Assembly: GCA_964596395.1 (NCBI GenBank)
Contig: CAZQSY010000004.1
Location: 9,008 to 73,007, forward strand
DNA: 64,000 bases
Direction of reading: 5' to 3'
Source: an uncultured Candidatus Saccharibacteria bacterium
GTDB taxonomy: Bacteria; Patescibacteriota; Minisyncoccia; Phycocordibacterales; UBA9973
The notes under the pieces are model-generated. The model had not been told where the DNA came from. It did no database searches and saw nothing but the letters and a program-made list of their open reading frames with translations. A program made the position numbers and the translations under genes. The stretch's first letter is position 1. The number at the start of each line of letters is the position of its first letter. Below are positions 2,437 to 35,205 of this stretch, in pieces.

Positions 2437-3780
2437 TTATATTTTATTTATTCTTTGACCTTGAGAAGTATCCTTCACATCATACCCCAAAGAATTTATT
2501 TTTTTTCTAAGCTCATCTGATTTTTTAAAATCCTTGTTTCTGCGCGCTTCCTCCCGCTCTTCCGCGATTTTTTTCACCTCTTCCGGGATTTCTTCTTTTT
2601 TCAGGTTCTCGAAGCCCAAGCCGAAGACTTTGTCAAAATCAAGAATGGTTGCTTTCTTGTCCGAGTTTGAGAAACCATTGTCTTTAACCAGATCCCAGAG
2701 CAGGGCGAGGGCCCGTGGAGTGTCTAAATCATCTTCCAGTAACGTTTTAAATTTGAGTTGATAATCTGTATTTACTTGCCCAGTTTCATCGCCTAGGCCT
2801 AAAAATGCGCTTTGGAGCCGTCTTAGGGCAGAATCCGCTCCCCTCAGTGCTTCTTCGTTGAAATTCATAGGGGAGCGGTAGTGAGTCATTAACACCCATA
2901 GGCGAAAAGCCTTCGGTGATATTCCAGATTCTTGTATGTCCCGGATAGTTTTAAAATTTCCCAAGCTCTTGGACATTTTTTTTGAGTCAATATTGAGGAA
3001 TCCTGTATGTGTCCAATAGCGCACAAGGGGTTCCAGGCCGGAGGCCGACTCCATTTGCGCAATTTCACATTCATGGTGGGGAAAAATAAGGTCAATTGCT
3101 CCGCCGTGGATATCGTACTGCGGGCCGAATTTCGTTTCGGTGATTGCCGTATCTTCTATGTGCCAGCCCGGCCGGCCTTTACCAAATGGGGAATCCCACG
3201 ATGGTTCGCCGGGTTTTTCCGCCTTCCATAAGCAGAAATCATTCCATCCGCGTTTTTCCCTCGCCTCATCTACCCGCGAGATAGAATCATCTTCTTTTAG
3301 TTCTGTCCGTCCAGAAAGTTTGCCGTAATCTTTGAATTTCGCCGTTTCAAAATAAATACCGTCAGCGATTTTGTACGCGTAGCCTTTCCCCGAGAGAACC
3401 TCCACTTGTTTGATTATTTCCGTAATAAAATCAGTCGCCCGCGCATATTCGTTTACCGCGTCATTGCCGAGTGTCGTCATGTCTTCTTTGTATGCTTGCT
3501 CAAATTTCTCCGCGAGTTCTTTCCATGGCATCTCCCGTTCACGGGCGCGGTTGATTATTTTGTCGTCAATATCAGTAATATTTTGCAAGTAGAAAACATC
3601 GTAACCGAGATAACGCAAAACTTTTGCCAGCACGTCAAATTGCGTATAGGTTTTACCGTGCCCTAGGTGGGGAAAATCGTAAACAGTCGGGCCGCACACA
3701 AAAAAGTTCACCCTTTTTTCTTTTAACGGCACGAATTCCTCTTTTTTTCTCGTCAGGGTATTGTAAAGTTTTAAAGACAT
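2437..3780 (-). CDS. cysS: Cysteinyl-tRNA synthetase
   Basis: HIGH motif (PHLGHGKTY) and KMSKS motif present. Length 447 aa is typical. Confidence 0.9.
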   Translation of the reverse strand: MSLKLYNTLTRKKEEFVPLKEKRVNFFVCGPTVYDFPHLGHGKTYTQFDVLAKVLRYLGYDVFYLQNITDIDDKIINRAREREMPWKELAEKFEQAYKEDMTTLGNDAVNEYARATDFITEIIKQVEVLSGKGYAYKIADGIYFETAKFKDYGKLSGRTELKEDDSISRVDEAREKRGWNDFCLWKAEKPGEPSWDSPFGKGRPGWHIEDTAITETKFGPQYDIHGGAIDLIFPHHECEIAQMESASGLEPLVRYWTHTGFLNIDSKKMSKSLGNFKTIRDIQESGISPKAFRLWVLMTHYRSPMNFNEEALRGADSALRRLQSAFLGLGDETGQVNTDYQLKFKTLLEDDLDTPRALALLWDLVKDNGFSNSDKKATILDFDKVFGLGFENLKKEEIPEEVKKIAEEREEARRNKDFKKSDELRKKINSLGYDVKDTSQGQRINKI

Positions 3781-3790
3781 AAAAGATTCA

Positions 3791-3834
3791 AAACACAGGG
3801 TAGTCCTGTGTATACACAGGACTACCCTGTGTTT
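3791..3834. repeat. Family-E nested palindrome, intergenic copy between AI-2E transporter gene and cysS
   Basis: aaacacagggtagtcctgtgta|tacacaggactaccctgtgttt: perfect 22-bp inverted arms, each arm itself palindromic. Confidence 0.7.
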
Positions 3835-4844
3835 ACGGCTGTTTTAAATTCGTTCCGGTATATGGAAATAAGAGTATATAGAAGACTGATGGTAAGCGGC
3901 CCGACCAGGATTCCCACTGGGCCGAGCAGTGAAATACCTCCCAGAACGGAAAGCAATATGAGAAGCGGGGGAAGATTTATTTTATTTCCCACGATGTAAG
4001 GAGAAAGCAGATTGTCTACTGTTCCGACTATGATGATTGCCCAAAACATGAGTCCCACCGCCTCTGCGGTATTGCCCGAAAGAAACAGGAAGGCAATCGC
4101 CGGCACGGATATTAGGGATGTCCCTATCGTAGGAATCAGCGCGGCAATCACGGCTACCAGGCCCCACAGGGCGGGGTTTGGCACCCCGAATACGGCCAGT
4201 CCTGCGCCCATCAGAATTCCCTGAATCAGGGCAATCAAAAGGTATCCCTTGATGATTCCGTTTACCGCCAGAGAAAGTTTTTCCATGATTCTTTCGTCTT
4301 CGGTATCGGCAAGCGGGGATAGCAACACGAGCGCCCCCTTCCAGCGTGCTCCGTCTTTCAGGAAATAGAACATGGACAAAAGAATCAGGAGGAGGGAGAA
4401 AATCGCTTCCAGGGTGGAGGTGAAAATTTTAGCCAAACTACCCGAGACGACAGAAATGAAACCCGAAATTTTATCGTACAGATTGAAAGAAATATTTTCC
4501 GGCAAAATGTTGTTTACCCAAGTGTTCACCGAGTCAATGAAAGAAAGGGCGTGCACATTCTCTACGATCGAGCTGTAGGCGTTCTGGCTTTGGTTAAAGA
4601 CCATCGCGCCGATGCCGAAAAGCGGAATACCTATGATTAAAATGAAGAACAAGACAGTCAGCAGGGCGGCGAGCCAGCTGGGCAACTTTTTATTGAACCA
4701 CCGATAGATTGGATAAAGAACTATAGAGAAAGAAATGCCAAGCGTCAGCACTATCCAGAAAGGCCGGAAAATAAGAAAAGAAAACACAAACACCGCGGCC
4801 AGCAAAAAGAAGAAAAAATATCTTTCAATTATTTTCGTCTGCAT
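3822..4844 (-). CDS. AI-2E family transporter (PerM-like permease)
   Basis: 340 aa with ~8 TM segments and an AI-2E/UPF0118-like C-terminal region. Confidence 0.65.
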   Translation of the reverse strand: MQTKIIERYFFFFLLAAVFVFSFLIFRPFWIVLTLGISFSIVLYPIYRWFNKKLPSWLAALLTVLFFILIIGIPLFGIGAMVFNQSQNAYSSIVENVHALSFIDSVNTWVNNILPENISFNLYDKISGFISVVSGSLAKIFTSTLEAIFSLLLILLSMFYFLKDGARWKGALVLLSPLADTEDERIMEKLSLAVNGIIKGYLLIALIQGILMGAGLAVFGVPNPALWGLVAVIAALIPTIGTSLISVPAIAFLFLSGNTAEAVGLMFWAIIIVGTVDNLLSPYIVGNKINLPPLLILLSVLGGISLLGPVGILVGPLTISLLYTLISIYRNEFKTAVNTG

Positions 4845-9187: not shown

Positions 9188-9286
9188 CGAAGCCCCTGCA
9201 AATTCTTCGCTTCCCGAGGGTCCCGCTTTGGGGACCTAAAGCGCACCAAAGAAGGGCGCAGGGACGAAAAATTTGCAGGGGCTTCG
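9188..9286 (+). repeat. Family-A palindromic element (conserved ~62-nt core in the loop of a 16-17 bp hairpin) in the trpS leader
   Basis: Core ttcccgagggtcccgctttggggacctaaagcgcaccaaagaagggcgcagggacg is flanked by gaagcccctgcaaatt / aatttgcaggggcttc. It is ~95% identical (reverse orientation) to 39128..39214 inside dus. Confidence 0.7.
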
Positions 9287-10504: not shown

Positions 10505-11818
10505 ATGAACAGAATTTTATCTAGGGATGTAAAGAGCCACGCGGGTGAAGAAGTCATGATGCAGGGGTGGCTACACAAGAAGCGCGCCTTGGGCGGCATG
10601 ACTTTCATATTGCTTCGTGATCGAGGCGGCGTGATGCAAATTTTAATAGAAGACAAAGCCGAAGCAGCGAAACTTGATAACTTACAGATCGGCACAGTGC
10701 TCCAAATTACCGGCAAGGTTTTTGAAGAGCCGCGCGCGCCCGAGGGCGTAGAAATCCACGAGCCGAAAATTACCGTTATGCTGCCGGTTACCGACACGTC
10801 GCCGATAGAGCTCGACAAGCCGCTCGGGCATAAGTCGGAAAACCTGGATACGCTTTTTGATTACAGAGTTATCGGGCTCAGGAATTTACGCGAGCAAGCC
10901 GTTTTTAAAATCCAGGCGCAAGTAATGAATGAGGTGCGCGCGTATCTGAAAAGCGAGGATTTTGTTGAGTTTCGTTCTCCGAAACTTTTACCCGGCGCGA
11001 CAGAAGGCGGCGCAGAAGTTTTCAAGCTGGATTATTTCGGCAAAGAAGCGACTCTAGCGCAGAGCGCGCAATTTTACAAACAAATGCTGGTCGGGGTTTA
11101 CGAGAGAGCTTTTGAAATCGGTTCGACTTATCGCGCCGAGCCGTCGGCCACTCCGCGCCACATGACCGAGTTTCAGACCATTGACGTTGAAATGGGTTTT
11201 ATAGAACTGGAGGACCTGCTTCATATGATGAGCGGTTTTATGAATTCAGTAATTGACGGCGTTTGGAAGAATTGCGAAAAGGAACTCAAGATGTGGGAAG
11301 CGGCAAAACCTACTCTGACTAAAGAAATTCCTCAGCTCACTATGGAAGAAATTCACAAGAGGTATTCTGAAGCAAACAAAGAGCAAACAATCGGCGAGAA
11401 AGACCTGCGCCCCGACGAAGAACGATGGATTTGCGAGTATGCAAAGGAAAATTTGGGTAGCGAAGCCGTCTTTGTGGTTGATTGGCCGAGAGAGGGCGCG
11501 AAGTTTTATCATAAGTTCAAAGAAAGTGACCCGAATATCGCCGAACGAGCGGATTTACTTTTCCGCGGAGTAGAAATTGCCACGGGTAGCATGCGCGAGC
11601 ACCGCTATGATGTATTAGTAAAACAGCTTCGTGAAATGGCGGGAGGGAACCCTGATTCTGACGGCTTCAAGTATTTCTTTCAAGCGTTCAAGTACGGGAT
11701 GCCCAGCGAGGGAGGTTTTGGCATGGGTTTGGAGCGGCTTACGCAGAAAATTATCGGCCTGGCTAACGTCAAAGAAGCTGCGCTCTTTCCGCGTGACATG
11801 AATCGCCTTGCCCCGTAA
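10505..11818 (+). CDS. aspS: Aspartyl-tRNA synthetase, class II archaeal/eukaryal-type (likely non-discriminating)
   Basis: 437 aa. N-terminal OB fold, then class-II motifs FRSPKL and GGFGMGLERL. The short archaeal-type architecture is typical of CPR/archaea. Confidence 0.85.
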   Translation: MNRILSRDVKSHAGEEVMMQGWLHKKRALGGMTFILLRDRGGVMQILIEDKAEAAKLDNLQIGTVLQITGKVFEEPRAPEGVEIHEPKITVMLPVTDTSPIELDKPLGHKSENLDTLFDYRVIGLRNLREQAVFKIQAQVMNEVRAYLKSEDFVEFRSPKLLPGATEGGAEVFKLDYFGKEATLAQSAQFYKQMLVGVYERAFEIGSTYRAEPSATPRHMTEFQTIDVEMGFIELEDLLHMMSGFMNSVIDGVWKNCEKELKMWEAAKPTLTKEIPQLTMEEIHKRYSEANKEQTIGEKDLRPDEERWICEYAKENLGSEAVFVVDWPREGAKFYHKFKESDPNIAERADLLFRGVEIATGSMREHRYDVLVKQLREMAGGNPDSDGFKYFFQAFKYGMPSEGGFGMGLERLTQKIIGLANVKEAALFPRDMNRLAP

Positions 11819-12183
11819 TGAATTACATAATTAAAGGTAGGGTAATCAAGGGTGAAGGTTACGGCAAAAAGATCGGCTTTCCGACGGCCAACCTAAGCAG
11901 AAATGGAATACATACGGAGCATACGGAGGCGTTGCCTCCGTACGGAGTGTATGCGGGTTTTGTTTTCATTGGCACTAAAAATTACAGGGCGGGTATTGTG
12001 ATAGGTCCGCTGGACAGGAAGGGTTTGCCGAAAATTGAAGCGCATCTGGTTGGTTTCAAAGGAAATTTGTACGGCAAGAAAATTATTTTACATTTAAATA
12101 AATTTCTGCGAAAATTCAGGAAGTTCGAGACCGAGAGGGAACTCATTATTCAAATAAAGAAAGATTTAGAAAAATGCAAATAA
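11818..12183 (+). CDS. Riboflavin kinase (monofunctional RibF C-terminal-type domain)
   Basis: GFPTANL, GVY and EAHL..F...LYGK motifs of the flavokinase domain. Confidence 0.7.
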   Translation: MNYIIKGRVIKGEGYGKKIGFPTANLSRNGIHTEHTEALPPYGVYAGFVFIGTKNYRAGIVIGPLDRKGLPKIEAHLVGFKGNLYGKKIILHLNKFLRKFRKFETERELIIQIKKDLEKCK

Positions 12184-13763: not shown

Positions 13764-13800
13764 ATTATAGCAAAATACTTTACTTTAGTCAACTAAAGTA
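13764..13800 (-). promoter_or_regulatory. Consensus sigma70-type promoter (TTGACT-N17-TATAAT on minus strand) with overlapping palindrome, upstream of the yerC-like gene
   Basis: Minus-strand read gives TTGACT (13787-13792), a 17-nt spacer, then TATAAT (13764-13769). Palindrome actttagtTGACtaaagt overlaps the -35. Confidence 0.55.
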
Positions 13801-16379
13801 GATAGATAGGTGTGAATATCCCTTTTGTCTCTCTTCAGCCACAATATATTGCTTTCGAGTTTTTCTATGACTTGCTCTACGGCTCGCTCGGCGCCGGGGG
13901 CGGGATGGGTTCTGAAGAATTTCTTGAATTTGCGCAAGTGCCTTTCTTCGGCGCTTCCGGAAATCGCTTTCATAAATCTGGAGAGCGTGTGTCCGCCTTC
14001 GCCGTACCTCGTGACGAAAGTTTTCCAGTTCCGGGTGATGCATTTGAGCCATGCGTCTCGGCCGAGGGGATTCATTCCGACAGAGGATATTATTCCGGAA
14101 GTATCCTGCGGGCGCACGTGCGAAGACAGCGAAAATTGTGCGGCTTTTCTAAGGATTTCCGGGGAAGAGAAGTTGCCTAAAGCGGCGCCGATCCTGTTTC
14201 TTTCTTCATGCAGCGCTTCTTTTTTGTACATTTTTATAAGCTCTTCATATTCTTTGATTCCGCCGGATTTCGCTACGATGCCGTAAATTGGAGCGCGCAG
14301 GTCCGGGTCAACCCTTTTGCCTTTTTTAATTTTTGCAAAAAGATTTTTGGCTTTTAAAATTGTTTTTTCGTCGCCGGCTTGGCCTAATATTTCTATACAA
14401 AGGGGCCGAAGCATTGAATCAGAAGGGGGTTCGTTTTTTTTCTTACTCCACCCGAGGCGGCGAAAAACAGGGGAGAACAAGCTGATAATTAAACCATCGA
14501 GATTCGCTTCGCTTCCGGTTTTGCAAAAAATTTGCTTGATTCCCCTTATGCCCAGAGCTATCGCGTGCAGGACGGAATAATCACTCTCTCTTTTATACGC
14601 TTTTAAAAATTTCAGAGCTTCGCTCGTTCTTCCGTCGCCAGATTCGGCAAGCGCGAAGAGGTCCCTTATGATTCCCAGGCGGTCCCGCGCGGAGATTTTT
14701 TTATCCCGTACCGGCTTTGCTAATCTGTCGAGCATTTTTTTGGAATAGGCGACTCTGAAAAATCCGCTTTCGCCCGCGTTTATTTTTACAAACTCGGGCT
14801 TGGAGGCCTTGCCTCCAAGCGGAGGCAAGGCCTCCAAGCTCAACTTAGTACTCTGGCTACTAAGCAGTATTTTTGCAGTATTTTTGCCGTCTCCGAAAAC
14901 AATCGGCGTTTGCCAAATTATTTTGTCTTTGTTTTTTCTTTTGGAAATTGGGCTTGAGAAAAATCTGCCCTGCGAAAGATATAAACTTTCACCCTTTATT
15001 TCTGTCTTTATGACCGGGTACCCGGGTTTGGCAGTCCAGTTTTGCATTATTTTTTTTACCGGTTTTCCCGAGATTTTTTCAAATGCTTGCCAGAGGTGCG
15101 CGGTTTCGGTGTTTTTATAGCTATGTTTTTTCAAGTAATAGCGCAGACCGTCTCGAAAATCTTTTTCTCCCAGATATTCGGCCAGCATTCTGATAATACA
15201 GGCGCCTTTTGAATACGATACCTCGTCGAAGATTTCGCCGATTTCGTCGGGGTGATGCACTTTCACTTCTACCGGATGTGTGTTGGCCAATGAATCCAAA
15301 CGGAGTGCTACTCCTAAATCCTGCACCGAAAATTGTGTCCACATATTCCATTCAGGGAAGACCTTTTCCAGCGCCAAATATTCCATATATGAGGCGAATC
15401 CTTCGTTGAGCCACAGGTGTGTCCACCACTCCATAGTCACTAGGTTGCCGAACCACTGGTGGGCAATTTCATGTGCCACGACCAAAGCCACTCTCTGTTT
15501 GTTTGTGAGCGAGGAATTTTTTTCGTCAAAAAGCAGGGCGCTTTCGCGGTAGGTAATGGCGCCCCAGTTTTCCATGGCGCCGGCGGCAAAATCCGGGACA
15601 GCTATCATATCAAGCACGGGCAGGGGGTACTTGATATCAAAATATTTTTCGTAAAAATCCAGCATTTTGGCGGCGCAAGAAAGCGCGAACCCTGCCTGAT
15701 GCTTTTTCTCGGGATGCGTAAAGACGCGCACCGCGACCCCCCGTCTGGTTTTTGTCTGGAGCATATCAAAATCTCCCACAATGAAGGCCAGGAGGTAAGT
15801 GGACATTTTCGGCGTGGGAGAAAATCTTACAATGTCAAAGCCTGCCTCGTGCTCTTTTATTGAAACCGGCAAGGTATTAGAAATCGCCGTTTTGCCTTTT
15901 TCCACCACCAGTGATACCTTGAACACGGCTCTGTGTGCTGGTTCGTCGAAACAAGGGAAAGCCCGGCGCGCGTCGGTGGCTTCGAATTGGGTAGTGGCCA
16001 TGTGGCGTTCTTTGCCGTAAAGCATATACCGGCTGCGATAGAAGCCCCGCATTTTGTCGTTCAGTATGCCTTGAAATATCAACCGTAATTTGGCCGTGCC
16101 AGCTGGTATTTTTTTAGAAAATACAAAAGTCGCGGTTTCCCTTTTTTCGTCGTAAGAAATTTTTTCGGCGAAAAGTTTTTCTGCCAATACCGTGATGCTT
16201 GCCGTCTCAATGTCTATTTCTTTGCTGTGCAGGGTTATCTCCTTTGTCGGCTTCAAGATTTTTATTTTTATCTCCTCTTCGCCTTTGAAGGTGAAGTTCA
16301 GAAGGTCCGGATGCAATTTCAAATCGTACTCCGAGGGGATTATAGACGAGTCAAGTTTTGCGGATTTTTTTTTCTGCAT
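13785..16379 (-). CDS. pepN: Aminopeptidase N (M1 family metallopeptidase)
   Basis: HEIAHQWFGNLVT...WLNEGFA zinc-binding motif and GAMEN-like GAMENWG. Confidence 0.9.
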   Translation of the reverse strand: MQKKKSAKLDSSIIPSEYDLKLHPDLLNFTFKGEEEIKIKILKPTKEITLHSKEIDIETASITVLAEKLFAEKISYDEKRETATFVFSKKIPAGTAKLRLIFQGILNDKMRGFYRSRYMLYGKERHMATTQFEATDARRAFPCFDEPAHRAVFKVSLVVEKGKTAISNTLPVSIKEHEAGFDIVRFSPTPKMSTYLLAFIVGDFDMLQTKTRRGVAVRVFTHPEKKHQAGFALSCAAKMLDFYEKYFDIKYPLPVLDMIAVPDFAAGAMENWGAITYRESALLFDEKNSSLTNKQRVALVVAHEIAHQWFGNLVTMEWWTHLWLNEGFASYMEYLALEKVFPEWNMWTQFSVQDLGVALRLDSLANTHPVEVKVHHPDEIGEIFDEVSYSKGACIIRMLAEYLGEKDFRDGLRYYLKKHSYKNTETAHLWQAFEKISGKPVKKIMQNWTAKPGYPVIKTEIKGESLYLSQGRFFSSPISKRKNKDKIIWQTPIVFGDGKNTAKILLSSQSTKLSLEALPPLGGKASKPEFVKINAGESGFFRVAYSKKMLDRLAKPVRDKKISARDRLGIIRDLFALAESGDGRTSEALKFLKAYKRESDYSVLHAIALGIRGIKQIFCKTGSEANLDGLIISLFSPVFRRLGWSKKKNEPPSDSMLRPLCIEILGQAGDEKTILKAKNLFAKIKKGKRVDPDLRAPIYGIVAKSGGIKEYEELIKMYKKEALHEERNRIGAALGNFSSPEILRKAAQFSLSSHVRPQDTSGIISSVGMNPLGRDAWLKCITRNWKTFVTRYGEGGHTLSRFMKAISGSAEERHLRKFKKFFRTHPAPGAERAVEQVIEKLESNILWLKRDKRDIHTYLSTLVD

Positions 16380-17943: not shown

Positions 17944-18351
17944 ATGGAAACCGGATTGAACGAAAAAATTATCGAGCCCGCATGGGCTTTGTCTTCATCC
18001 TTATCTGAATGGGTGTGGAGCGTTCTTTATTTTATCATCGCTTTTTCTTTCATCTCTGTTTTTCAGAAATTTTATAAAAAGGAGTTACCCGGCAAGGTCG
18101 CCTTGCCGTTTTTGCTGAACTTGATTTTTAATTTAATACTTGTGCCTCTGCAGGTGCTTTCGAATGGAAGCATATTCGCGTCTATCGATGCGGGGCTGGT
18201 CTTGATTACCTTAGTATGGGCGACAGCGGTCGTCGCCCGGCATCTGAAGTGGGTTGCCTTGGTAAATATTCCTTACCTTTTGTGGATATGTTACGTGCTG
18301 GCGGTTGAAATAATCAAATTCATTAATTATCGAGCCATCGTCATCCAGTAA
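17944..18351 (+). CDS. Hypothetical small membrane protein (Trp-rich, 4 TM)
   Basis: Hydrophobic 135-aa ORF, well packed between neighbours. Confidence 0.4.
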   Translation: METGLNEKIIEPAWALSSSLSEWVWSVLYFIIAFSFISVFQKFYKKELPGKVALPFLLNLIFNLILVPLQVLSNGSIFASIDAGLVLITLVWATAVVARHLKWVALVNIPYLLWICYVLAVEIIKFINYRAIVIQ

Positions 18352-19106
18352 TGGAAACCGAAACATATCAAATAAAAACCCGTGATTTTGAGGGGCCGTT
18401 TCATCTCTTACTCTCGCTTATTCAGGAGAAGAAATTTTTTATCAACGACCTTTCGCTTTCACAAATAACCGAGGATTATCTCAACTACATAAAGCAAATC
18501 GGCGAGATTGATACCCGGCAGGTTTCCGGCTTTGTCGCCGTGGCGGCTACGCTGATTCTGATAAAATCCAAATCGCTACTGCCTTCGCTTAATCTTTCGG
18601 CGGAAGAGGAAGGAGACATCAAAAATCTGGAAGACCGGCTGAAGCTGTATGAATTTTATACCGAGCTCTCGGCGGGCGTGAAAAAGATTTTCGGCAAAAG
18701 AATGATTTTCGCCCCGCTTCCGCGGAAAAACGCTTTCTCTATGTTCATGCCCGACCAGAAAATTACCAGGGAAAACATGGCGAGCATAATCTTGGAGGTT
18801 TTGGGCAGGGTTCCGAAAAAAGAATTTCTTCCCGAAGTGGAGGTGAAAAAAGTCATCAGTTTAGAGGAAATGATTTCGAAGCTTTCAGAAAGAATAGAAA
18901 AAAGTTTGGAATTTAATTTCAAAGATTTTGCCTGCCTGCCGGCAGGCAGGCCGGGTCAATCCATAACGAAAGAAGAAAAGGTGGTTGTAATTATCAGTTT
19001 TCTTGCTATGCTAGAACTCGTGAGACAAGGTTTGCTTCACGTTACCCAGAGTGAGAATTTCGAAGATATCATTATTCAAAAACAACAAAATGGAACTCCA
19101 GCATAA
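18351..19106 (+). CDS. scpA: Segregation and condensation protein A
   Basis: FEGPFHLLLSLIQ N-terminus typical of ScpA. Carries an in-frame copy of the 20-bp palindrome CCTGCCTGCCGGCAGGCAGG at 18931-18950. Confidence 0.8.
   Translation: METETYQIKTRDFEGPFHLLLSLIQEKKFFINDLSLSQITEDYLNYIKQIGEIDTRQVSGFVAVAATLILIKSKSLLPSLNLSAEEEGDIKNLEDRLKLYEFYTELSAGVKKIFGKRMIFAPLPRKNAFSMFMPDQKITRENMASIILEVLGRVPKKEFLPEVEVKKVISLEEMISKLSERIEKSLEFNFKDFACLPAGRPGQSITKEEKVVVIISFLAMLELVRQGLLHVTQSENFEDIIIQKQQNGTPA
18931..18950. repeat. Family-C 20-bp perfect palindrome CCTGCCTGCCGGCAGGCAGG (copy inside scpA, in frame)
   Basis: Identical 20-mer at 22291-22310. Close variants at 44726-44743 and 34514-34534. Confidence 0.7.
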
Positions 19107-22371: not shown

Positions 22372-23139
22372 ATGAAAATGATCGTTCAAAATTTGGCCAC
22401 GGAATACGAAGATGAGGGGGAGGGAAAAACCTTGCTTTTTTTGCACGGATGGCAAAGCAATCTGCACACTTTCGACCCCTTAGTGAATTCCTTGAGGGAT
22501 TCACTAGAGAAAACGCACAGGTTCGTGCGCCTTGATTTGCCGGGTTTTGGCGGGAGCGAAAGGCCGAGGGAGGATTGGGACTTGGACAAATATGTCTATT
22601 TCGTTTCTGATTTTGTAAAAAAAATGAATCTAGATGTATACGCGCTAGTCGGGCACTCGATGGGCGGACGGATAATTATAAAAGGCGTTTCGGAAAATAT
22701 TTTGAAAACCGAGAAAATAGTGCTAATTTCTTCAGCCGGCATCGCCAAGAGGAAAACTTTCCGCAACCGTTTATTAAAGTTTCTGGCGAAAACCGGCCGG
22801 ATGGTCACGTGCATTCCGCCGTTTTATTTCTGGCGGGAGGGATTGCGCCGAAAAATGTACCAAAAAATCGGAAGTCGAGATTACCTTTCTGCCGGCGCCA
22901 TGCGGGGGACTTTCGTTCGGGTAATAAACGAAGATCTTTCTATAAACGCCCAAAAAGTTAATTCTCCGGCGCTGCTTGTCTGGGGCGAGAATGACACAGA
23001 AACGCCCCTTTCTGATGGAATGCGGCTCTCAAAAATGATTGCCGGTTCGGAGCTTAATGTTTTAAAAGGTTGCGGACATTTCGTGCATGAAGAAAAAGCA
23101 CAAGAGGTGGGAGATATCGTGGAAAAATTCTTATGTTAA
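22372..23139 (+). CDS. Alpha/beta hydrolase fold protein
   Basis: LLFLHGWQSN and nucleophile elbow GHSMGG. -10 TATAAT upstream at ~22353. Confidence 0.75.
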   Translation: MKMIVQNLATEYEDEGEGKTLLFLHGWQSNLHTFDPLVNSLRDSLEKTHRFVRLDLPGFGGSERPREDWDLDKYVYFVSDFVKKMNLDVYALVGHSMGGRIIIKGVSENILKTEKIVLISSAGIAKRKTFRNRLLKFLAKTGRMVTCIPPFYFWREGLRRKMYQKIGSRDYLSAGAMRGTFVRVINEDLSINAQKVNSPALLVWGENDTETPLSDGMRLSKMIAGSELNVLKGCGHFVHEEKAQEVGDIVEKFLC

Positions 23140-24623
23140 AAAATATATTCAACAGATTTATTTCTAAATACAGCTTGCGTTATCCTAGGTCGATAGCGTA
23201 TATGCTGCAGGCGAGCGAATACAAACCGGTTCCGTATCTCAAATGGTGGTTGAGGGTAGAAGATTTTTGCCGGGTGGAAAAAAGAAAGAGTTTGGTAAAA
23301 ACCCAAAATGCGAAAATCTTCCTTTCGTTTTCCTGGCTGATTTACCTCGCTTCGTATGCCGCCATTCTGGGCGTTTTGGTTTTTGCAAATTTCGATTATA
23401 AATACGCCGCCGTGGCGGCCATGGCGCTTCTGGCTCCTTATATTCTAGCTTTCGGAGTTTTGCTTTTGGTTTTTGCCATGAAAATTTTTTATCTGCCCAA
23501 AATGCATTTTTTGATTAAAAAAAGAACTGCGGAGCTTGAAAAACACAAGGGCTTGAAAATCGGCATTGCCGGGAGCTTCGGCAAAACGACTATGCGCGAA
23601 ATATTGAAGACCGTGCTTTCCGCCGGTAAAAAAGTCGCTTCGCCGGAGAAAAATTATAATACGCTGACGGGTATCAGCAATTTCATTAAGACGTTAAAAG
23701 GAGACGAAGAAATTTTAATCTTTGAACTTGGCGAATATTACAAAGGGGACATAAGAGAGATGTGCGAATTTGTGCATCCGCAAATCGGGATAATCACCGG
23801 AGTAAATGAAGCGCACTTGGAGAAATTCAAGAATCTGGATACAACCGCGAGCACGATTTTTGAACTAGCTGATTGGCTTGAGGAAAATAAAAAAAACACA
23901 GGGGAACCCTGTGAAAATTTTACACAGGGTTCCCCTGTGTTGTACATAAACGGCGAAAACGAACCGGCAAAAAGTCGCGCCCAGTCGAAGGATTTTGTCT
24001 ATTCAAGGAGCGGCTTGGATGGTTTGCGGGTTTCGAGCGCACATGCTGGGCTCGAAGGCACCAGTTTTACTCTGGAGTATGAGGGTAAAAATTTTGAGTT
24101 TAATTCAGGACTCCTCGGCTTGCACCAAGTCGGCCCGCTTTGCGCGGCGGTGCATCTGGGTCTATGTCTAGGAATAAAGATAAGTGACCTGCAAAAAGGA
24201 GTGGCCGAAACGAAACCATTCGAGCATCGGTTAGAGCCAAAGACCCTCGCCGGCGGAGTAACGATGCTGGATGACAGCTATAACGGCAACCCTGACGGGG
24301 TTAAGGTGGTGATAGAATTTTTGGCTTCGCTTAAAAGCCGCCGCCGGTTTTACGTTACTCCCGGATTGGTAGAAATGGGACCGAGGACCGAAGAAGTGCA
24401 TAAAGAAATCGGCAGGGAACTCGCGCGAAGCGGAATAGAAAAAATTGTTTTGGTAAAAAACTCGGTTACGCCTTATATTGAAGCAGGTCTGAAAGAAGAG
24501 AATTTCGCGGGCGAAGTGATATGGTTTGAAGACAGCTTAAAAATGCTTTCGGCCTTGCCTCATTTGACCGTTTCGGGTGATATAGTATTATTGCAGAATG
24601 ACTGGCCCGACCAATACTACTAA
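23133..24623 (+). CDS. murF: Mur ligase family protein, likely UDP-MurNAc-tripeptide--D-Ala-D-Ala ligase, with unusual N-terminal TM extension
   Basis: Mur ligase P-loop GIAGSFGKTT, central and C-terminal domains, and the gene sits next to ddl. ~130-aa N-terminal segment with 2-3 TM helices. In-frame family-E palindrome at 23895-23941. Confidence 0.7.
   Translation: MLKNIFNRFISKYSLRYPRSIAYMLQASEYKPVPYLKWWLRVEDFCRVEKRKSLVKTQNAKIFLSFSWLIYLASYAAILGVLVFANFDYKYAAVAAMALLAPYILAFGVLLLVFAMKIFYLPKMHFLIKKRTAELEKHKGLKIGIAGSFGKTTMREILKTVLSAGKKVASPEKNYNTLTGISNFIKTLKGDEEILIFELGEYYKGDIREMCEFVHPQIGIITGVNEAHLEKFKNLDTTASTIFELADWLEENKKNTGEPCENFTQGSPVLYINGENEPAKSRAQSKDFVYSRSGLDGLRVSSAHAGLEGTSFTLEYEGKNFEFNSGLLGLHQVGPLCAAVHLGLCLGIKISDLQKGVAETKPFEHRLEPKTLAGGVTMLDDSYNGNPDGVKVVIEFLASLKSRRRFYVTPGLVEMGPRTEEVHKEIGRELARSGIEKIVLVKNSVTPYIEAGLKEENFAGEVIWFEDSLKMLSALPHLTVSGDIVLLQNDWPDQYY
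23895..23941. repeat. Family-E nested palindrome (aacacaggggaaccctgtg-aaaatttt-acacagggttcccctgtgtt) in frame inside murF
   Basis: Nearly perfect ~23-bp inverted arms. A sibling copy (arms acacagggtagtcctgtg) is intergenic at 3791-3834. Here it encodes NTGEPCENFTQGSPVL. Confidence 0.7.
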
Positions 24624-32913: not shown

Positions 32914-35205
32914 TTACTCAGTTTTTTTTAATTTATGCGGGTTATGGTTAGCGCACATTTTATTACTGCACCGCTCAGGTATGGTCTTTGTGCCGAGCAT
33001 CATTAAGCTTCCGCACATGTCGCAGATCCTGCCGGTGGGTTTGGCTTTTATCGCGAATTTGCAGTCGGGGTAATTTGAGCAGGAATAAAAAATCCCGAAA
33101 CGCCCACGGCGCTCGGTGAGTTCGCCTTTCTTACACTCTGGGCAAGCCACACCTGTTTTCTTTCTGGCCTCCTCGGCTTCATCTTTTTTAATAAACTTAC
33201 ATTTCGGATAGCGCGAGCAGGAGATAAAGGTGCCCGAGCCGTCGCGTCTTTCTTTGATTACCAGTTTGCCACCTCCATTTTTACCCTCCTTGTCTCCGCA
33301 TTCAGGGCATTTTTCGCCCGTTTCTTCCGGGCCCTTTAATTCTGTGCCGTCGAACTTCAGCGCTCCATCGCATTCGGGATATTTCGAGCAGGAATAAAAT
33401 TTCCCTCCGCGAGAGAGTTTGATTATCATCGAACTGCCGCATTTTGGGCATTTTATATTCTCCGGCGCGTCGCCCAAGTTGGTCGCTTTTTCGAGTTTTT
33501 CTTTCGATTTTATTTCTTTTAAGAACGGCCCGTAAAAATCTTTGAGCGTCTTTTCGTACTCGCGCTCGCCCCGCGAGATTTCGTCGAGTTCATCTTCCAT
33601 TTCGGCGGTGAAATTATCCGAGATGTACTTCATAAAATGTTTTTCCAAAAAGTCCGAGACAACTTCACCGGTGTCGGTGGGGAAGAGGGTGCGGTTTTCC
33701 TTGCGCACGTACTCGCGGTCTTCCAGGGTCTTCATGATTGAGGCGTAAGTAGAAGGCCGGCCGATGCCGCGCGCTTCAAGTTCTTTCACCAGGCCGGCTT
33801 CGCTGTATCTTCCCGGCGGTTCGGTGAATTTTTCTTCGCTAGATAACTCAAGCATTTTTAAATTTTCGTTTTCTTTTACTTCGGGCAGAACAACATCTTC
33901 GTTCCCGTTCGCGCTGTCAACCTTGAGCCAGCCGTCAAAAAGTATCCGCGAGCCGATAGCGGTGAAGTCGGGAAACTCAAACTTGGAAGTTGAATTTCCA
34001 CTTGGAAGTCCGACTTCCAAGTTGCTTACATTCGCGCTGATTTTTGTTTTCAGAACCTTGGCGTCGGCCATCTGCGAAGCTACCGCGCGCTCCCATATTA
34101 ACCTGTACAATCGTCTTTGCTCTTCGGTGCCCGCTTCCGCGTTTTCGACGTGGGTAGGGCGAATAGCCTCATGCGCTTCCTGCGCGTTTTTTGATTTAGT
34201 TTTGTACATACGCGGCTCGGCGTAATTTTTTCCGTATTTTTTTTCTACGAGCGCTAGAATTTGCGCTTGAGCCGCGGCGCCCAGGTTCGTGCTGTCGGTA
34301 CGCATATAAGTGATATGCCCGGCCTCGTAGAGTTTCTGCGCGAGTTGCATAGTGCGGGAAGGCGAGTATCCCAAGCGCGAGCTCGCGGTCTGCTGCAGGG
34401 TAGAGGTGGTAAAGGGCGCGCGCGGAGAGCGCTTTTGCTCGGATTCTTTGACTTCAACGATTTTCCAGTTCTCTTTTCTGCCCGTTTCCAGTATTTTTTC
34501 TACCAGTTTTTCGCCTGCCTGTCCGGTAGGCAGGTCACGCGGTTCGTCTTTGCAGGTCAGGGCCAGCTTGTCTCCCTTGCTTGTTTCAAAGACGCCGAAA
34601 ATTTTCCAGTATCTTTCGGGAACGAAAGCGCGGATTTCCCGCTCGCGTTCCATAATAATGCGAAGCGCCGGCGACTGCACTCTGCCAGCAGAGAGCCCAT
34701 AGCGCACTTTTTTCCAGATAAGGCCGGACAAATCATATCCCACCAGTCGGTCGAGCACCCTACGGGCTTCCTGGGCTCTGCGCAAGGCGGTATCTATCTC
34801 TCTCGGGTTTTTGAGGGCTTCTTCTACCGCCTCGGCGGTTATTTCGTGAAAAGTGGCGCGCTTTATCGGCGCTTTTATTTTTTTATCGCCATTTAAAATT
34901 TCTTTGATATGCCAGGCGATGGCCTCGCCCTCCCGGTCGGGGTCGGTAGCCAGAATTACCTCGTCTGCTTTTTCGGCCAAACCTTCGAGTTCGCGCACAA
35001 CTTTTTCTTTGCCTTTGGATATTTCGTAATGCGGAACAAAGCCCCCTTCGATGTCTATGGCTTTCTTGTTTGATTTTGGTAAATCGCGAATATGGCCGAT
35101 AGACGCGCGTACAACATAAGGATCCAGGTCCGCCCCTGAATTGGCGGACAGGTATTTTTCAATCGTCTTTGCTTTCGATGGTGATTCAACAATAAGTAAT
35201 CGCAT
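32914..35205 (-). CDS. topA: DNA topoisomerase I with C-terminal C4 zinc-ribbon repeats
   Basis: Toprim N-terminus, active-site Tyr region, topo IA core, and four C-terminal CxxC...CxxC zinc ribbons. Confidence 0.9.
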   Translation of the reverse strand: MRLLIVESPSKAKTIEKYLSANSGADLDPYVVRASIGHIRDLPKSNKKAIDIEGGFVPHYEISKGKEKVVRELEGLAEKADEVILATDPDREGEAIAWHIKEILNGDKKIKAPIKRATFHEITAEAVEEALKNPREIDTALRRAQEARRVLDRLVGYDLSGLIWKKVRYGLSAGRVQSPALRIIMEREREIRAFVPERYWKIFGVFETSKGDKLALTCKDEPRDLPTGQAGEKLVEKILETGRKENWKIVEVKESEQKRSPRAPFTTSTLQQTASSRLGYSPSRTMQLAQKLYEAGHITYMRTDSTNLGAAAQAQILALVEKKYGKNYAEPRMYKTKSKNAQEAHEAIRPTHVENAEAGTEEQRRLYRLIWERAVASQMADAKVLKTKISANVSNLEVGLPSGNSTSKFEFPDFTAIGSRILFDGWLKVDSANGNEDVVLPEVKENENLKMLELSSEEKFTEPPGRYSEAGLVKELEARGIGRPSTYASIMKTLEDREYVRKENRTLFPTDTGEVVSDFLEKHFMKYISDNFTAEMEDELDEISRGEREYEKTLKDFYGPFLKEIKSKEKLEKATNLGDAPENIKCPKCGSSMIIKLSRGGKFYSCSKYPECDGALKFDGTELKGPEETGEKCPECGDKEGKNGGGKLVIKERRDGSGTFISCSRYPKCKFIKKDEAEEARKKTGVACPECKKGELTERRGRFGIFYSCSNYPDCKFAIKAKPTGRICDMCGSLMMLGTKTIPERCSNKMCANHNPHKLKKTE

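What the first reader, a model, noticed from the sequence alone, without database searches (positions are those of the whole stretch)
3791..3834. A nested-palindrome element (family E) occurs intergenically here and in frame in murF
Two copies of a 44-47-nt element are present. Each has arms of ~22 bp that are themselves palindromic (acacaggg-NNN-ccctgtg). They can therefore form cruciform or double-hairpin structures.

One copy lies between the AI-2E transporter gene and cysS. The other lies inside murF (23895-23941), where it is translated as NTGEPCENFTQGSPVL without disrupting the frame.

The arms share the acacaggg / ccctgtg ends but differ in their centres (gta/tac vs gaa/ttc). The palindrome is kept in both.
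Basis: seen in the sequence. Interest (0 to 1): 0.65.

Follow-up and report, generated by a model that had tools for sequence, protein, structure and literature searches.

The report
REP-like palindrome doublets in a Patescibacterium
The two nested palindromes are real lineage-specific insertions from a repeat family found across ultra-small Patescibacteria, where it flanks a REP-type tyrosine transposase gene and often sits in frame inside essential genes, as here in MurF.

Summary
Window 3791-3834 is a perfect 44-nt palindrome and 23895-23941 is a 47-nt near-perfect one. Each is two CACAGG-N5-CCTGTG hairpin units with reverse-complementary loops (4 units in the window, 0 in shuffles).

Both are insertions. 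The closest MurF ortholog and nearly all others lack the 48 nt / 16 aa. In a syntenic relative the AI-2E stop and the cysS start are 6 nt apart; in the window the palindrome fills that gap and its loop supplies the TAG stop.

The same doublet occurs in 65 stretches from about 32 genomes, almost all Patescibacteria. About half lie inside ORFs, including DnaE, SecA, ArgS, MurC, MnmA, QueA and HolB.

The one recurrent neighbouring gene is a 216-286 aa Y1/HUH transposase. Its best structural match is E. coli TnpA-REP bound to a REP hairpin, and its only NCBIfam hit is the REP tyrosine transposase model (below cut-off). It is bracketed by the units in several genomes. Five of five homologs picked independently are also bracketed by lineage-specific hairpins with compensatory stem changes.

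Best reading: a REP-doublet (REPIN-like) element of a RAYT-type system that behaves like Rickettsia palindromic elements. No transposase lies in the window, and mobilisation is inferred. I rate it a new member of a known kind, of moderate interest.

The parts
3791..3834 (.). Copy 1: perfect 44-nt palindrome AAACACAGGGTAGTCCTGTGTA|TACACAGGACTACCCTGTGTTT, a doublet of two inverted hairpin units (REPIN-like)
   Evidence: It is absent from the syntenic AI-2E-cysS junction of relative L075, where the stop and the cysS ATG are 6 nt apart.
3794..3810 (.). Unit 1a: CACAGG-GTAGT-CCTGTG hairpin
3815..3831 (.). Unit 1b: CACAGG-ACTAC-CCTGTG hairpin; its loop is the reverse complement of the loop of 1a
3822..3824 (-). 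TAG stop codon of the AI-2E transporter gene. It is supplied by the element, which is a perfect palindrome, so on the minus strand this loop reads GTAGT. The protein tail is TAVNTG*, against QNMAL*/QSMVS* in orthologs.
3781..3834 (-). Terminator-like arrangement on the coding (minus) strand: 20-bp hairpin followed by TTT TGAATCTTTT, ending directly before the cysS ATG at 3780
   Evidence: consensus scan only; function not shown
23895..23941 (.). Copy 2: 47-nt palindrome AACACAGGGGAACCCTGTGAAAA-T-TTTACACAGGGTTCCCCTGTGTT inside the MurF-like gene
23897..23913 (.). Unit 2a: CACAGG-GGAAC-CCTGTG (7-bp stem CACAGGG/CCCTGTG, loop GAA)
23923..23939 (.). Unit 2b: CACAGG-GTTCC-CCTGTG; its loop is the reverse complement of the loop of 2a
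23892..23939 (+). 48-nt / 16-codon insertion (KNTGEPCENFTQGSPV, aa 254-269) relative to MurF orthologs. The boundaries are uncertain by a few nt.
   Evidence: In the AlphaFold2 model it is a coil between helix 244-251 and strand 269-273, with the lowest internal pLDDT (61-66).
23133..24623 (+). MurF-like Mur ligase gene, host of copy 2 (496 aa; orthologs typically 475-477 aa)
3822..4844 (-). AI-2E family transporter gene; its 3' end runs into copy 1
2437..3780 (-). cysS (cysteine-tRNA ligase); its start codon lies 10 nt downstream of copy 1 on the minus strand

Best explanation
The two nested palindromes are copies of a REP-like repeat family of Patescibacteria.

**The element.** The basic unit is a 17-19-nt hairpin with a 6-8-bp stem (here CACAGG/CCTGTG) and a 3-5-nt loop. 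The dispersed form is a doublet of two such units in inverted orientation, 1-15 nt apart. It can fold as one long hairpin or as two short ones. This is the architecture of a REPIN, a REP doublet forming a hairpin.

**Shown in other genomes.** The same units bracket, and sometimes interrupt in frame, a gene for a Y1/HUH tyrosine transposase of the RAYT (TnpA-REP) type.

**Inferred mechanism.** This enzyme would bind the hairpin on single-stranded DNA and cut and rejoin it, as E. coli TnpA-REP and the IS608/ISDra2 TnpA enzymes do. That would copy the two gene-flanking ends, as a gene-less doublet, to new sites.

**Inferred reason for in-frame copies.** These genomes have almost no intergenic DNA, so many surviving insertions lie in coding sequence. 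Selection keeps only those that are a multiple of three, free of stops, and in tolerant surface loops.

**In this window.** Both copies are lineage-specific insertions (shown).
- One landed at the AI-2E/cysS junction. There it replaced the C-terminal tail, donated the TAG stop, and created a terminator-like hairpin plus T-run. Its effect is inferred.
- The other added 16 residues to a loop of the MurF central domain without breaking the frame.
For: **The element is real and non-random.**

**Both copies are insertions.**
- The MurF ortholog alignment and the codon-level empty site in the closest ortholog show the murF copy is an insertion.
- The syntenic AI-2E-cysS junction in relative L075 is TAA ATCAAA ATG, without the element. 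The AI-2E tails differ only after EFK.
- Neither relative's 20-kb locus has any CANAGG-type unit.

**The family is widespread.**
- 65 stretches hold 78 overlapping doublet matches in about 32 genomes, of which 26-27 are Patescibacteria.
- With the window's two, 60 of 80 have exactly reverse-complementary loops, and more than 10 different loop sequences occur.

**Transposase association.**
- All-against-all clustering of 461 neighbouring ORFs gives one recurrent family, in 8 loci from 7 genomes.
- It matches Pfam Y1_Tnp, E 6e-12 to 9e-7.
- NCBIfam hits only NF047646, REP-associated tyrosine transposase.
- It carries the HUH motif MPNHFHLL and a Y---NP motif, YIHLNP.
- The AlphaFold2 model (pLDDT 89.5) has 4er8, TnpA-REP bound to a REP hairpin, as its top PDB match (E 1.7e-6). 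This ranks ahead of ISDra2, IS608 and IS200 TnpA.
- The gene is bracketed by doublets in L018, L019, L021, L041 and L057. L057 also has one in frame inside the gene. A doublet lies next to the gene in L005 and L008.

**Reciprocal test.**
- Five of five homologs chosen from the protein search, not by DNA pattern, are bracketed within about 60 nt by hairpins of the same geometry.
- The stems are lineage-specific: GTGAGG, CAGAGG, CCAAGGGG, CATAGGG and CACAGG/CTTGTG. The two flanking units lie in inverted orientation.
- Three of six stem pairs show compensatory changes, and 100% of cells are paired.

**In-frame copies in real genes.** Pfam domains lie on both sides of the element in DnaE, SecA, ArgS, MurC, MnmA, QueA (two genomes) and an ELP3-like radical-SAM protein. 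Copies also lie within a PMT_2 glycosyltransferase and HolB.

**Literature.** REP doublets next to RAYTs define REPINs (PMC3116915). In-frame REP insertions within tnpA-REP and other genes are reported (PMC6006769).
Against: - No RAYT homolog lies in the 64-kb window (tblastn). The rest of the source genome could not be read, so a cognate transposase in this organism is not shown.
- Only two copies occur in 64 kb, and they belong to different sub-types (GTAGT and GGAAC loops, different spacers). Recent activity in this genome is therefore not shown.
- The proteins score below NCBIfam's RAYT cut-off (37-48 bits against 80).
- Their motifs (NHFH, YIHLNP) resemble subclass 2.1 / group 1, for which no REP association was found in published surveys (PMC6006769).
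- The canonical GT[AG]G guide tetranucleotide is present in copy 1 only, inside the loops. It is absent from copy 2 and from many sub-families.
- In some genomes the units are concentrated at the transposase gene, with few dispersed copies in 20 kb.
- Many copies carry copy-specific palindromic extensions of up to 12 bp beyond the core. Simple cut-and-paste of a fixed unit does not explain these.
- No biochemical or population evidence of transposition is available.
Confidence: 0.75

Rival explanations
1. The Y1 gene with its inverted hairpin ends is a genuine autonomous insertion sequence (IS200/IS605-like, or 'TIRYT'), not a domesticated single-copy RAYT. The doublets would then be its ends-only miniature derivatives (a MITE or PATE), spreading selfishly and horizontally between Patescibacteria.
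For: - The gene is bracketed by 19-30-nt terminal inverted repeats in L069, L071 and L072.
- Joining the two ends gives exactly the doublet.
- The same CACAGG stem occurs across very distant lineages, including Saccharibacteria, Paceibacterota and Nomurabacteria. This fits horizontal spread.
- The motifs resemble subclass 2.1, which was equated with TIR-associated Y1 transposases (PMC6006769).
Against: - Protein clusters are nearly all seen on one or a few contigs.
- The two copies in one genome, STB_91 (L022 and L057), each share only 34-40% identity with the reference protein L018 and are visibly divergent from each other in the alignment. That resembles RAYT class 2, not an IS.
- The top structural match is TnpA-REP.
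- Only one viral contig carries the doublet.
- Copies at orthologous sites in HolB (4 genomes) and QueA (2 genomes) point to long vertical persistence.
Confidence: 0.17
2. The palindromes are not mobile. They are intrinsic terminators or RNA-stability hairpins that evolved in place and look alike through convergence or a shared sequence preference.
For: - Copy 1 scores as a terminator-like site on the coding strand.
- Flanks across the family are A-rich upstream and T-rich downstream. Forty-two of 80 copies have an A- or T-run on at least one side.
- Many copies sit between co-directional genes.
Against: - About half of the copies lie inside ORFs, including essential genes with domains on both sides.
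- The murF copy has no T-run on the sense strand.
- Both window copies show clean empty sites in close relatives.
- The units are specifically associated with a Y1 transposase gene in 12 loci.
Confidence: 0.04
3. The 17-bp palindromic units are double-stranded binding sites for a dimeric protein (operator, nucleoid or partition site) or are DNA-uptake sequences of these naturally competent bacteria.
For: - CACAGG-N5-CCTGTG is a dyad-symmetric site of operator-like size.
- The positions AGG...CCT are invariant across lineages.
- Neisseria uptake sequences also occur as inverted pairs in terminators (own knowledge).
Against: - The density is low: 2 per 64 kb here, and 8 to about 16 doublets found in the best genomes. 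Uptake sequences occur roughly once per kb.
- Compensatory stem changes keep pairing rather than sequence.
- Sites lie within coding loops of unrelated genes.
- The only recurrent neighbour is a single-strand-specific HUH enzyme.
Confidence: 0.02
4. The palindromes arise locally by replication template switching (fold-back copying) at short hairpins, without any transposase.
For: - Copy-specific palindromic extensions reach 12 bp beyond the core.
- Loop 'flips' occur between orthologous copies. QueA in L053 has direct loops ACTAC/ACTAC, while L055 has inverted loops ACTAC/GTAGT. This is the kind of change template switching produces.
Against: - It does not explain the same 17-nt unit at unrelated sites and in unrelated genomes.
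- It does not explain the association with the Y1 gene.
- It may well act secondarily to keep the arms complementary.
Confidence: 0.02

Closest known systems
REP / REPIN elements with their RAYT (TnpA-REP) transposase, as in Pseudomonas fluorescens and E. coli (PMC3116915, PMC3337134, PMC6006769)
   Same: - A short palindromic unit.
- Doublets in inverted orientation that form a long hairpin.
- Units bracketing a Y1/HUH transposase gene with a Y---NP motif and a TnpA-REP-like fold.
- Occasional tandem clusters, like BIMEs.
- In-frame REP copies inside the transposase gene itself, as reported for subclass 2.4.
- Copy 1 can be parsed as a 'double-foot' REP: GTAG-hairpin-CTAC.
   Different: - Much smaller: units of 17-19 nt and doublets of 35-49 nt with 1-15-nt spacers, against 21-65-nt REP units (PMC6006769) and, from own knowledge, doublets of roughly 100 nt.
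- No constant GT[AG]G foot.
- About half the copies are intragenic rather than extragenic.
- The host phylum, Patescibacteria, was not covered by the published surveys I could read.
- The proteins fall below the NCBIfam RAYT cut-off, and their motifs look like the supposedly REP-less subclass 2.1.
- Copy numbers seen are tens, not hundreds.
Rickettsia palindromic elements (RPE) (Ogata et al. 2000, as summarised in PMC10969869)
   Same: - A palindromic repeat in a reduced, host-dependent bacterium.
- Repeated in-frame insertion into unrelated housekeeping genes, adding a peptide segment without destroying the protein.
   Different: - RPEs are about 150 bp; these are 36-48 nt.
- There is no sequence relation.
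- RPEs have no known transposase partner (own knowledge), whereas this family has a RAYT-like one.
- The phylum differs.
TIRYT: Y1 transposases flanked by terminal inverted repeats (Di Nocera et al. 2013, as discussed in PMC6006769, subclass 2.1)
   Same: - A Y1 class-2 protein of about 220-240 aa with NH[YF]H and Y[IV]HLNP-type motifs.
- The gene is bracketed by inverted repeats.
   Different: - The published TIR consensus GGGG[AT][CG]A[CG] is not the CACAGG hairpin.
- No hairpin-forming REP and no dispersed doublets were reported for that group.
- No C-terminal HTH or DnaA-like domain was detected here by Pfam.
IS200/IS605 transposons and their palindrome-associated miniature derivatives
   Same: An HUH-Y1 enzyme that recognises subterminal DNA hairpins on single strands, with ends-only derivatives able to spread.
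   Different: - IS200/IS605 ends are two different hairpins, not an inverted pair.
- The Y motif is of class 2 (Y---NP), not the class 1 motif.
- No identical multi-copy transposase genes were seen.

Membership tests
REP/REPIN-RAYT system | Unit is a short imperfect palindrome that forms a hairpin | tested here: met
   CACAGG-N5-CCTGTG units. Stem pairing is kept by compensatory changes across lineages. The unit is only 17-19 nt, at or below the short end of published REPs (21-65 nt, PMC6006769).
REP/REPIN-RAYT system | Replicative form is a doublet of two units in inverted orientation that folds into one long hairpin | tested here: met
   Both window copies are such doublets. Sixty of 80 doublets found have exactly reverse-complementary loops.
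REP/REPIN-RAYT system | Units flank a RAYT gene (REPtron arrangement) | tested here: met
   Met in other genomes. Units bracket or adjoin the gene in L005, L008, L018, L019, L021, L041 and L057, and in 5 of 5 independently chosen homolog loci, L069-L073. Not shown for the window's own genome, where no homolog lies in the 64 kb.
REP/REPIN-RAYT system | Associated protein is a class-2 Y1/HUH transposase (HUH motif, Y---NP motif, TnpA-REP fold) | tested here: met
   - Pfam PF01797.
- MPNHFHLL and YIHLNP motifs.
- NF047646 is the only NCBIfam hit, but at 37-48 bits it is below the 80-bit cut-off.
- 4er8 is the top fold match, E 1.7e-6, TM 0.61.
REP/REPIN-RAYT system | Many copies per genome, over-represented relative to chance | tested here: inconclusive
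   The window has 2 doublets in 64 kb (0 expected), but the whole genome was not available. Other genomes have at least 16 doublets (STB_91) and 8 (LacPavin MAG) by exact pattern alone. These are tens, not the hundreds typical of Pseudomonas or E. coli.
REP/REPIN-RAYT system | Extragenic location | tested here: not met
   Thirty-seven of 80 copies lie inside ORFs by crude gene calling. At least 10 are in proteins with Pfam support. Window copy 2 lies in MurF.
REP/REPIN-RAYT system | Conserved GT[AG]G guide tetranucleotide at the 5' foot of the hairpin | tested here: inconclusive
   Copy 1 and the GTAGT/GTAGC sub-families contain GTAG...CTAC and can be parsed as 'double-foot' REPs. Copy 2 (GGAAC/GTTCC) and the TGCCA, CAAGA, TCAGA and TCCGA sub-families do not.
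REP/REPIN-RAYT system | Mobilisation of the doublet by the RAYT | not testable with these tools
   Only indirect support: empty sites in relatives and co-variation of hairpin sequence with the adjacent transposase lineage.
Rickettsia palindromic elements (RPE) | Palindromic repeat inserted in frame in unrelated protein-coding genes and compatible with protein fold | tested here: met
   MurF insertion. DnaE, SecA, ArgS, MurC, MnmA, QueA, HolB and others.
Rickettsia palindromic elements (RPE) | About 100-150 bp element of the ten RPE sequence families, in Rickettsia | tested here: not met
   The elements are 36-48 nt and the host is Patescibacteria. The size and host of RPEs are taken from PMC10969869.
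MITE of the IS630/Tc1 type | TA target-site duplication and a related DDE transposase | tested here: inconclusive
   TA adjoins the core on both sides in about 60% of copies. It is itself part of the palindrome, and the window copies have A...T instead. No DDE transposase recurs among the neighbours; the only recurrent family is Y1.
Intrinsic (Rho-independent) terminator | G+C-rich hairpin followed by a U-run at the 3' end of a transcription unit | tested here: inconclusive
   Copy 1 meets the consensus on the coding strand. Copy 2 has a U-run only on the antisense strand. No transcript data are available.
TIGR or CRISPR-type guide arrays | Tandem array of conserved repeats separated by variable spacers, next to a Tas or Cas gene | tested here: not met
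   These are single dispersed doublets with no variable spacers. The array definition is taken from PMC12045711. There are no Rfam matches at either site.

The most novel reading that the evidence does not exclude
Patescibacteria as a whole may carry a very large, previously undescribed REP-RAYT system.

- At least about 8,000 transposase clusters were found.
- The hairpin units co-evolve with their transposase.
- The miniature doublets (36-48 nt) routinely colonise surface loops of essential proteins, including replication, translation, secretion and cell-wall enzymes.

This would make the system a steady source of new peptide segments in the most streamlined bacterial genomes. The transposases may belong to the 'group 1 / subclass 2.1' RAYT clade, which has so far been considered to have no REP partner. 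If so, that clade would gain a substrate and a function.
Probability: 0.4. Interest if true: 0.7.

Novelty: new member of a known kind. Interest (0 to 1): 0.5.

Why it matters
**For annotation.** It explains an odd 16-residue segment in an essential cell-wall enzyme and an altered C-terminus of a transporter. Both are footprints of a mobile palindrome, not lineage-specific functional motifs. This matters for annotating and modelling CPR proteins.

**For the field.** REP/RAYT systems have been studied almost entirely in Proteobacteria, Cyanobacteria and Bacteroidetes. I found no paper linking them to Patescibacteria in the library searched. Two features stand out:
- The Y1 family is very large across the phylum and has co-varying hairpins.
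- About half of the doublets lie in frame inside housekeeping genes.

Together these would give a second, independent example of the 'protein-coding palindrome' phenomenon known from Rickettsia, this time with an identifiable enzyme partner. That makes the mechanism experimentally testable.

**Practical use.** The doublets could serve as strain markers. They are also likely causes of assembly breaks and gene-calling errors in CPR metagenome bins.

Tried and rejected
- **TIGR-Tas arrays** are common in CPR, so I considered them. I rejected them after reading the array definition: alternating 8-12-nt repeats with 9-nt variable spacers, 5-15 units, next to a Nop-domain gene. The elements here are dispersed single doublets.
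- **Rfam** at gathering thresholds finds only four tRNAs in the window and nothing at either site.
- **A single-sequence PDB search** with one transposase found nothing. Profiles gave only weak sequence hits to ISDra2 TnpA and 4er8. The fold comparison was needed.
- **My own palindrome-finder script** returned nothing on the reciprocal loci. This was a script fault. The repeat finder then showed the flanking hairpins clearly.
- **Alternative assemblies.** A look-up of contigs encoding the identical CysS, to look for presence/absence polymorphism, found none on record.
- **Viral contigs** hold the doublet only once, so a phage vehicle is not supported.
- **Literature searches** for palindromic repeats or RAYT in Patescibacteria returned nothing relevant.
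- **Reference RAYT group sequences** are not held as supplements. I therefore could not compute a phylogenetic placement among RAYT groups. Only motif-level resemblance to subclass 2.1 is offered.
- **A TA target-site duplication** (IS630/Tc1-like MITE) was considered. It is not supported, because the TA is part of the palindrome and the window copies lack it.
- **DNA-uptake sequences** were rejected on density.
- **The metagenome-contig scan** was not used, because the genome scan gave enough.
Full report
**1. What is there**

Window 3791-3834 reads AAACACAGGGTAGTCCTGTGTA|TACACAGGACTACCCTGTGTTT. It is a perfect 44-nt palindrome. Window 23895-23941 reads AACACAGGGGAACCCTGTGAAAA-T-TTTACACAGGGTTCCCCTGTGTT, 23+23 nt and 96% complementary.

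Each arm is itself a hairpin unit, CACAGG-N5-CCTGTG. The two loops of a copy are reverse complements of each other: GTAGT/ACTAC in copy 1 and GGAAC/GTTCC in copy 2. A 'nested palindrome' is therefore the same as two tandem hairpins with identical stems and inverted loops.

The unit pattern matches four times in the window and never in 100 dinucleotide shuffles. Relaxing to two mismatches adds one doubtful site. As RNA, each copy folds into one long hairpin of about -37 kcal/mol, z = -7 to -10.
- Copy 1 has a 7-bp inner stem and 5-nt loops.
- Copy 1 overlaps the end of the AI-2E ORF.

**2. Context in the window**

The organism is a member of the Patescibacteria (CPR, Parcubacteria/Paceibacterota type). 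This follows from the names attached to homologs of its MurF-like and AI-2E proteins.

Copy 1 lies between the AI-2E transporter gene (3822..4844, minus) and cysS (2437..3780, minus). On the coding strand the AI-2E frame runs AAC ACA GGG TAG through the first arm, so the stop codon is the TAG of the loop. The hairpin is followed by TTTTGAATCTTTT and then the cysS ATG. The consensus scan calls this terminator-like.

Copy 2 lies in the 496-aa MurF-like ligase gene (23133..24623). There it reads AAC ACA GGG GAA CCC TGT GAA AAT TTT ACA CAG GGT TCC CCT GTG. On the sense strand it has no T-run. On the antisense strand it has T8.

**3. Both copies are insertions**

MurF orthologs are typically 475-477 aa.
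- In an alignment of 26 sequences the window protein alone has KNTGEPCENFTQGSPV between the helix ...TIFELADWL and the strand LYINGEN.
- At codon level the closest ortholog (P0002, locus L074) reads ...AAA CCA | CTC TAT GTA... where the window has 48 extra nucleotides.
- An AlphaFold2 model of the window protein (mean pLDDT 88.5) puts residues 252-268 in a coil between helix 244-251 and strand 269-273. This stretch has the lowest internal confidence, 61-66.
- The same loop carries other, unrelated and partly palindromic insertions in a few orthologs, such as P0027 and P0018. It is a permissive site.

For copy 1, a relative with the same gene order (L075, AI-2E 77% identical) has TTT AAA CAA AAT ATG GCT TTA TAA ATCAAA ATG. 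That is six nucleotides between the stop and the cysS start. The window has TTT AAA ACA GCC GTA AAC ACA GGG TAG ... and the rest of the palindrome before the ATG. Orthologous AI-2E proteins end ...EFKQNMAL or ...EFKQSMVS, while the window protein ends ...EFKTAVNTG.

Neither relative's 20-kb locus contains any CANAGG-type unit.

**4. The family elsewhere**

One scan of one genome per bacterial and archaeal species for the full doublet returned 65 stretches from about 32 assemblies. The pattern was CACAGGNNNNNCCTGTG, 0-15 nt, CACAGGNNNNNCCTGTG.
- Twenty-six or 27 assemblies are Patescibacteria: Paceibacterota, Saccharibacteria, Nomurabacteria, Kaiserbacteria, Nealsonbacteria and others.
- Chance expectation for 24 fixed bases is well below one (my own estimate).
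- Of 80 overlapping doublet matches, including the window's, 60 have exactly reverse-complementary loops. More than ten loop sequences occur.
- Spacers cluster at 2, 6 and 10 nt.
- Flanks are A-rich upstream and T-rich downstream, often with TA next to the core.
- Many copies extend the palindrome by copy-specific bases, up to 12 bp.
- Some genomes hold many copies: at least 16 doublets in Paceibacterota STB_91, and 8 nearly identical 36-nt palindromes in the LacPavin Parcubacteria MAG.
- Some copies are direct tandem arrays of three units, as in L008 and L046.

**5. Intragenic copies are common**

Crude gene calling puts 37 of 80 copies inside ORFs. I checked ten of the host proteins with Pfam:
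- DNA polymerase III alpha (L058)
- SecA (L061)
- arginyl-tRNA synthetase (L060)
- MurC (L062)
- MnmA (L049)
- QueA (L053 and L055)
- an ELP3-like radical-SAM protein (L016)
- a PMT_2 glycosyltransferase (L033)
- HolB (L015)

For the first eight proteins (seven families, QueA twice), Pfam domains span or flank the element. In the LacPavin genome four of eight copies lie in such genes.

HolB carries a doublet at the same position in four genomes (L007, L015, L034, L064), and QueA in two. Between these orthologous copies both loops can change together (GGAAC/GTTCC against GTAGC/GCTAC). One loop can also flip (ACTAC/ACTAC against ACTAC/GTAGT).

The unit has no stop codon in any frame unless the loop supplies one. 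This is why the GGAAC type reads through in MurF, while the GTAGT type terminates AI-2E in that frame (read directly from the sequence).

**6. The partner gene**

All-against-all comparison of the 461 ORFs in the fetched stretches gave one clearly recurrent family: 216-286 aa proteins in eight loci from seven genomes.
- All match Pfam Y1_Tnp, the IS200-like HUH tyrosine transposase.
- The only NCBIfam hit is NF047646, REP-associated tyrosine transposase. It scores 37-48 bits, below the 80-bit cut-off.
- The alignment shows MPNHFHLL (HUH) and YIHLNP. The latter is the Y---NP signature that defines class 2 (RAYT-type) Y1 proteins (PMC6006769).
- An AlphaFold2 model (pLDDT 89.5) has the E. coli REP-associated tyrosine transposase bound to a REP hairpin (4er8) as its best PDB match, E 1.7e-6. 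The ISDra2, IS608 and IS200 transposases follow at about 4e-4 or weaker.
- In L018, L019, L021, L041 and L057 the gene is bracketed on both sides by the doublets. In L057 one copy lies in frame inside it. In L041 one forms its C-terminus. In L005 and L008 a copy adjoins the gene.

**7. Reciprocal test**

A profile search with these proteins saturated the tool: 7,984 of 8,000 scored clusters had E <= 1e-10. All names among the best 120 are Patescibacteria lineages, and one JGI name is 'REP element-mobilizing transposase RayT'.

I fetched five homologs chosen for long contigs, not for DNA content. All five genes are bracketed within about 60 nt by hairpins of the same geometry but with lineage-specific sequence:

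| Locus | Flanking unit | Note |
|---|---|---|
| L069 | GTGAGG-N5-CCTCAC | |
| L070 | CAGAGG-CAAGA-CCTCTG | 7 units upstream, 1 downstream |
| L071 | CCAAGGGG-N-CCCCTTGG | also inside the gene |
| L072 | CATAGGG-TTA-CCCTATG | also inside the gene |
| L073 | CACAGG-GTAAT-CTTGTG | |

The two flanking units are inverted relative to each other. The complementary arms are 19-30 nt and up to 100% complementary.

Across twelve such units, 100% of stem positions pair, three of six pairs show compensatory double changes, and AGG...CCT at the stem top is invariant. One caveat applies: I picked these units because they are hairpins, so the pairing percentage is partly circular. The compensatory changes between lineages are not circular.

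Transposase relatedness tracks loop sequence. L018, L019, L069 and L070 all have CAAGA/CAAGG loops on different stems.

Deleting the gene between two inverted flanking units would give exactly the nested palindrome of the finding.

**8. Interpretation**

The anatomy matches the published definition of REPINs: REP doublets in inverted orientation that form hairpins and lie next to RAYT genes (PMC3116915, PMC3337134). It also matches the 'REPtron' arrangement. In-frame REP copies inside tnpA-REP and in unrelated genes have been reported (PMC6006769).

The behaviour in coding regions matches Rickettsia palindromic elements (PMC10969869).

What is shown:
- the element
- its insertion status at both window sites
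- its family
- its association with a RAYT-like gene in other genomes

What is inferred:
- that the Y1 enzyme mobilises the doublet through single-stranded hairpin recognition
- that copy 1 acts as a terminator or stabiliser
- that the MurF loop is functionally neutral

What is missing:
- a Y1 gene in this organism; none lies in the window
- whole-genome copy number
- any direct evidence of transposition

**9. Differences from canonical REP/RAYT**

- The units are very small.
- There is no constant GT[AG]G foot. Copy 1 can be read as a 'double-foot' GTAG-hairpin-CTAC, but copy 2 cannot.
- About half the copies are intragenic.
- The proteins fall below the curated RAYT threshold.
- Their motifs (NHFH, YIHLNP, about 220-240 aa) resemble subclass 2.1 / Bertels group 1. 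For that group no REP was found, and it was equated with TIR-associated 'TIRYT' proteins (PMC6006769, PMC5581495).
- In some genomes the units cluster at the gene with few dispersed copies. An IS-like reading therefore remains a serious rival.

**10. Novelty and score**

The kind is known: REP/REPIN with RAYT, and protein-coding palindromes. I found no description of it in Patescibacteria in the searchable literature.

I rate it a new member of a known kind, interest 0.5. The more novel reading is a phylum-wide system that seeds peptide loops in essential proteins and gives a substrate to a RAYT clade thought to lack one. I give that reading a probability of about 0.4.

Noticed in passing
window 14787-14850 and 11911-11953: A second nested-palindrome family with stem GGAGGC-N3-GCCTCC. 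The doublet lies in frame in the Peptidase M1 gene (13785..16379, minus; aa 510-531, between the catalytic and ERAP1_C domains). A single unit lies in frame in the riboflavin kinase gene (11818..12183).
   Followed up: partly
window 18930-18951 and 22290-22311: A 22-nt perfect palindrome, GCCTGCCTGCCGGCAGGCAGGC, occurs twice. One copy is in frame inside the ScpA gene (18351..19106, peptide ACLPAGRP). The other is intergenic, before the alpha/beta hydrolase gene.
   Followed up: partly
window 33980-34023: A 44-nt imperfect nested palindrome (AACTTGGAAGT...ACTTCCAAGTT) lies in frame inside the topoisomerase I gene (32914..35205, minus; aa 395-409).
   Followed up: partly
window 9188-9286, 39118-39225, 42680-42758, 42996-43091: Longer elements of 79-108 nt with 17-31-nt terminal inverted repeats around a G+C-rich core. 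The core of 39118-39225 is the reverse complement of the core of 9188-9286. The three that lie inside ORFs are 99 nt (a class I Trp/Tyr-type tRNA synthetase gene), 108 nt (Dus) and 96 nt (TsaD), all multiples of three. The fourth, 42680-42758, is 79 nt and intergenic. They are RPE-sized candidates for further protein-coding palindromes.
   Followed up: partly
window 45062-45159, 44763-44790 and 45189-45216: tRNA-Gln (45076-45147) is bracketed by a perfect 21-nt inverted repeat that extends its acceptor stem. A direct repeat of about 40 nt (TCGGCGACCCGCCGAAAAGGCGGGGACA) lies on either side, 426 nt apart.
   Followed up: no
MurF orthologs P0027 (L002 858-2342) and P0018 (L003 10001-11470): The same MurF loop carries other, unrelated 10-15-aa insertions in other Patescibacteria. 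Their DNA is also partly palindromic, for example CCCCTCC-N7-GGAGGGG and GCTGGA-A-TCCAGC. The loop is a recurrent landing site.
   Followed up: partly
L007, L015, L034, L064 (HolB); L053, L055 (QueA): Doublets sit at orthologous positions of the same gene in different genomes. Both loops may change in concert (GGAAC/GTTCC against GTAGC/GCTAC), or one loop may flip (direct against inverted). This suggests long persistence plus a process that keeps or re-sets arm complementarity.
   Followed up: partly
L006, L010, L017, L029, L051, L054, L059 (JBBRBF01, titled Actinomycetales bacterium): A G+C-rich MAG carries CACAGGG-SSS-CCCTGTG units alternating with the palindrome CCAACCNGGTTGG at seven loci. 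It is unclear whether this is a related family, a convergent one, or mis-binned DNA. Actinomycetales are known hosts of Saccharibacteria (own knowledge).
   Followed up: no
L070 1947-2320 and 3014-3032: An array of seven CAGAGG-CAAGA-CCTCTG units lies upstream of a RAYT-like gene, embedded in a 254-nt tandem duplication that also contains a terminator-like hairpin (AAAAACCACCCCGAC.GGGGTGGTTTTTT). One further unit lies downstream.
   Followed up: no
L076 2788-2885 (IMGVR_UViG_3300010885_060591): The only viral contig with the doublet carries two adjacent copies near one contig end.
   Followed up: no
L023 (Ferruginibacter) and L024 (Pedobacter): Bacteroidota hits to the pattern are direct repeats of CACAGG-TTTTA-CCTGTG with 26-29-nt periods. 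They are probably a different kind of tandem repeat.
   Followed up: no
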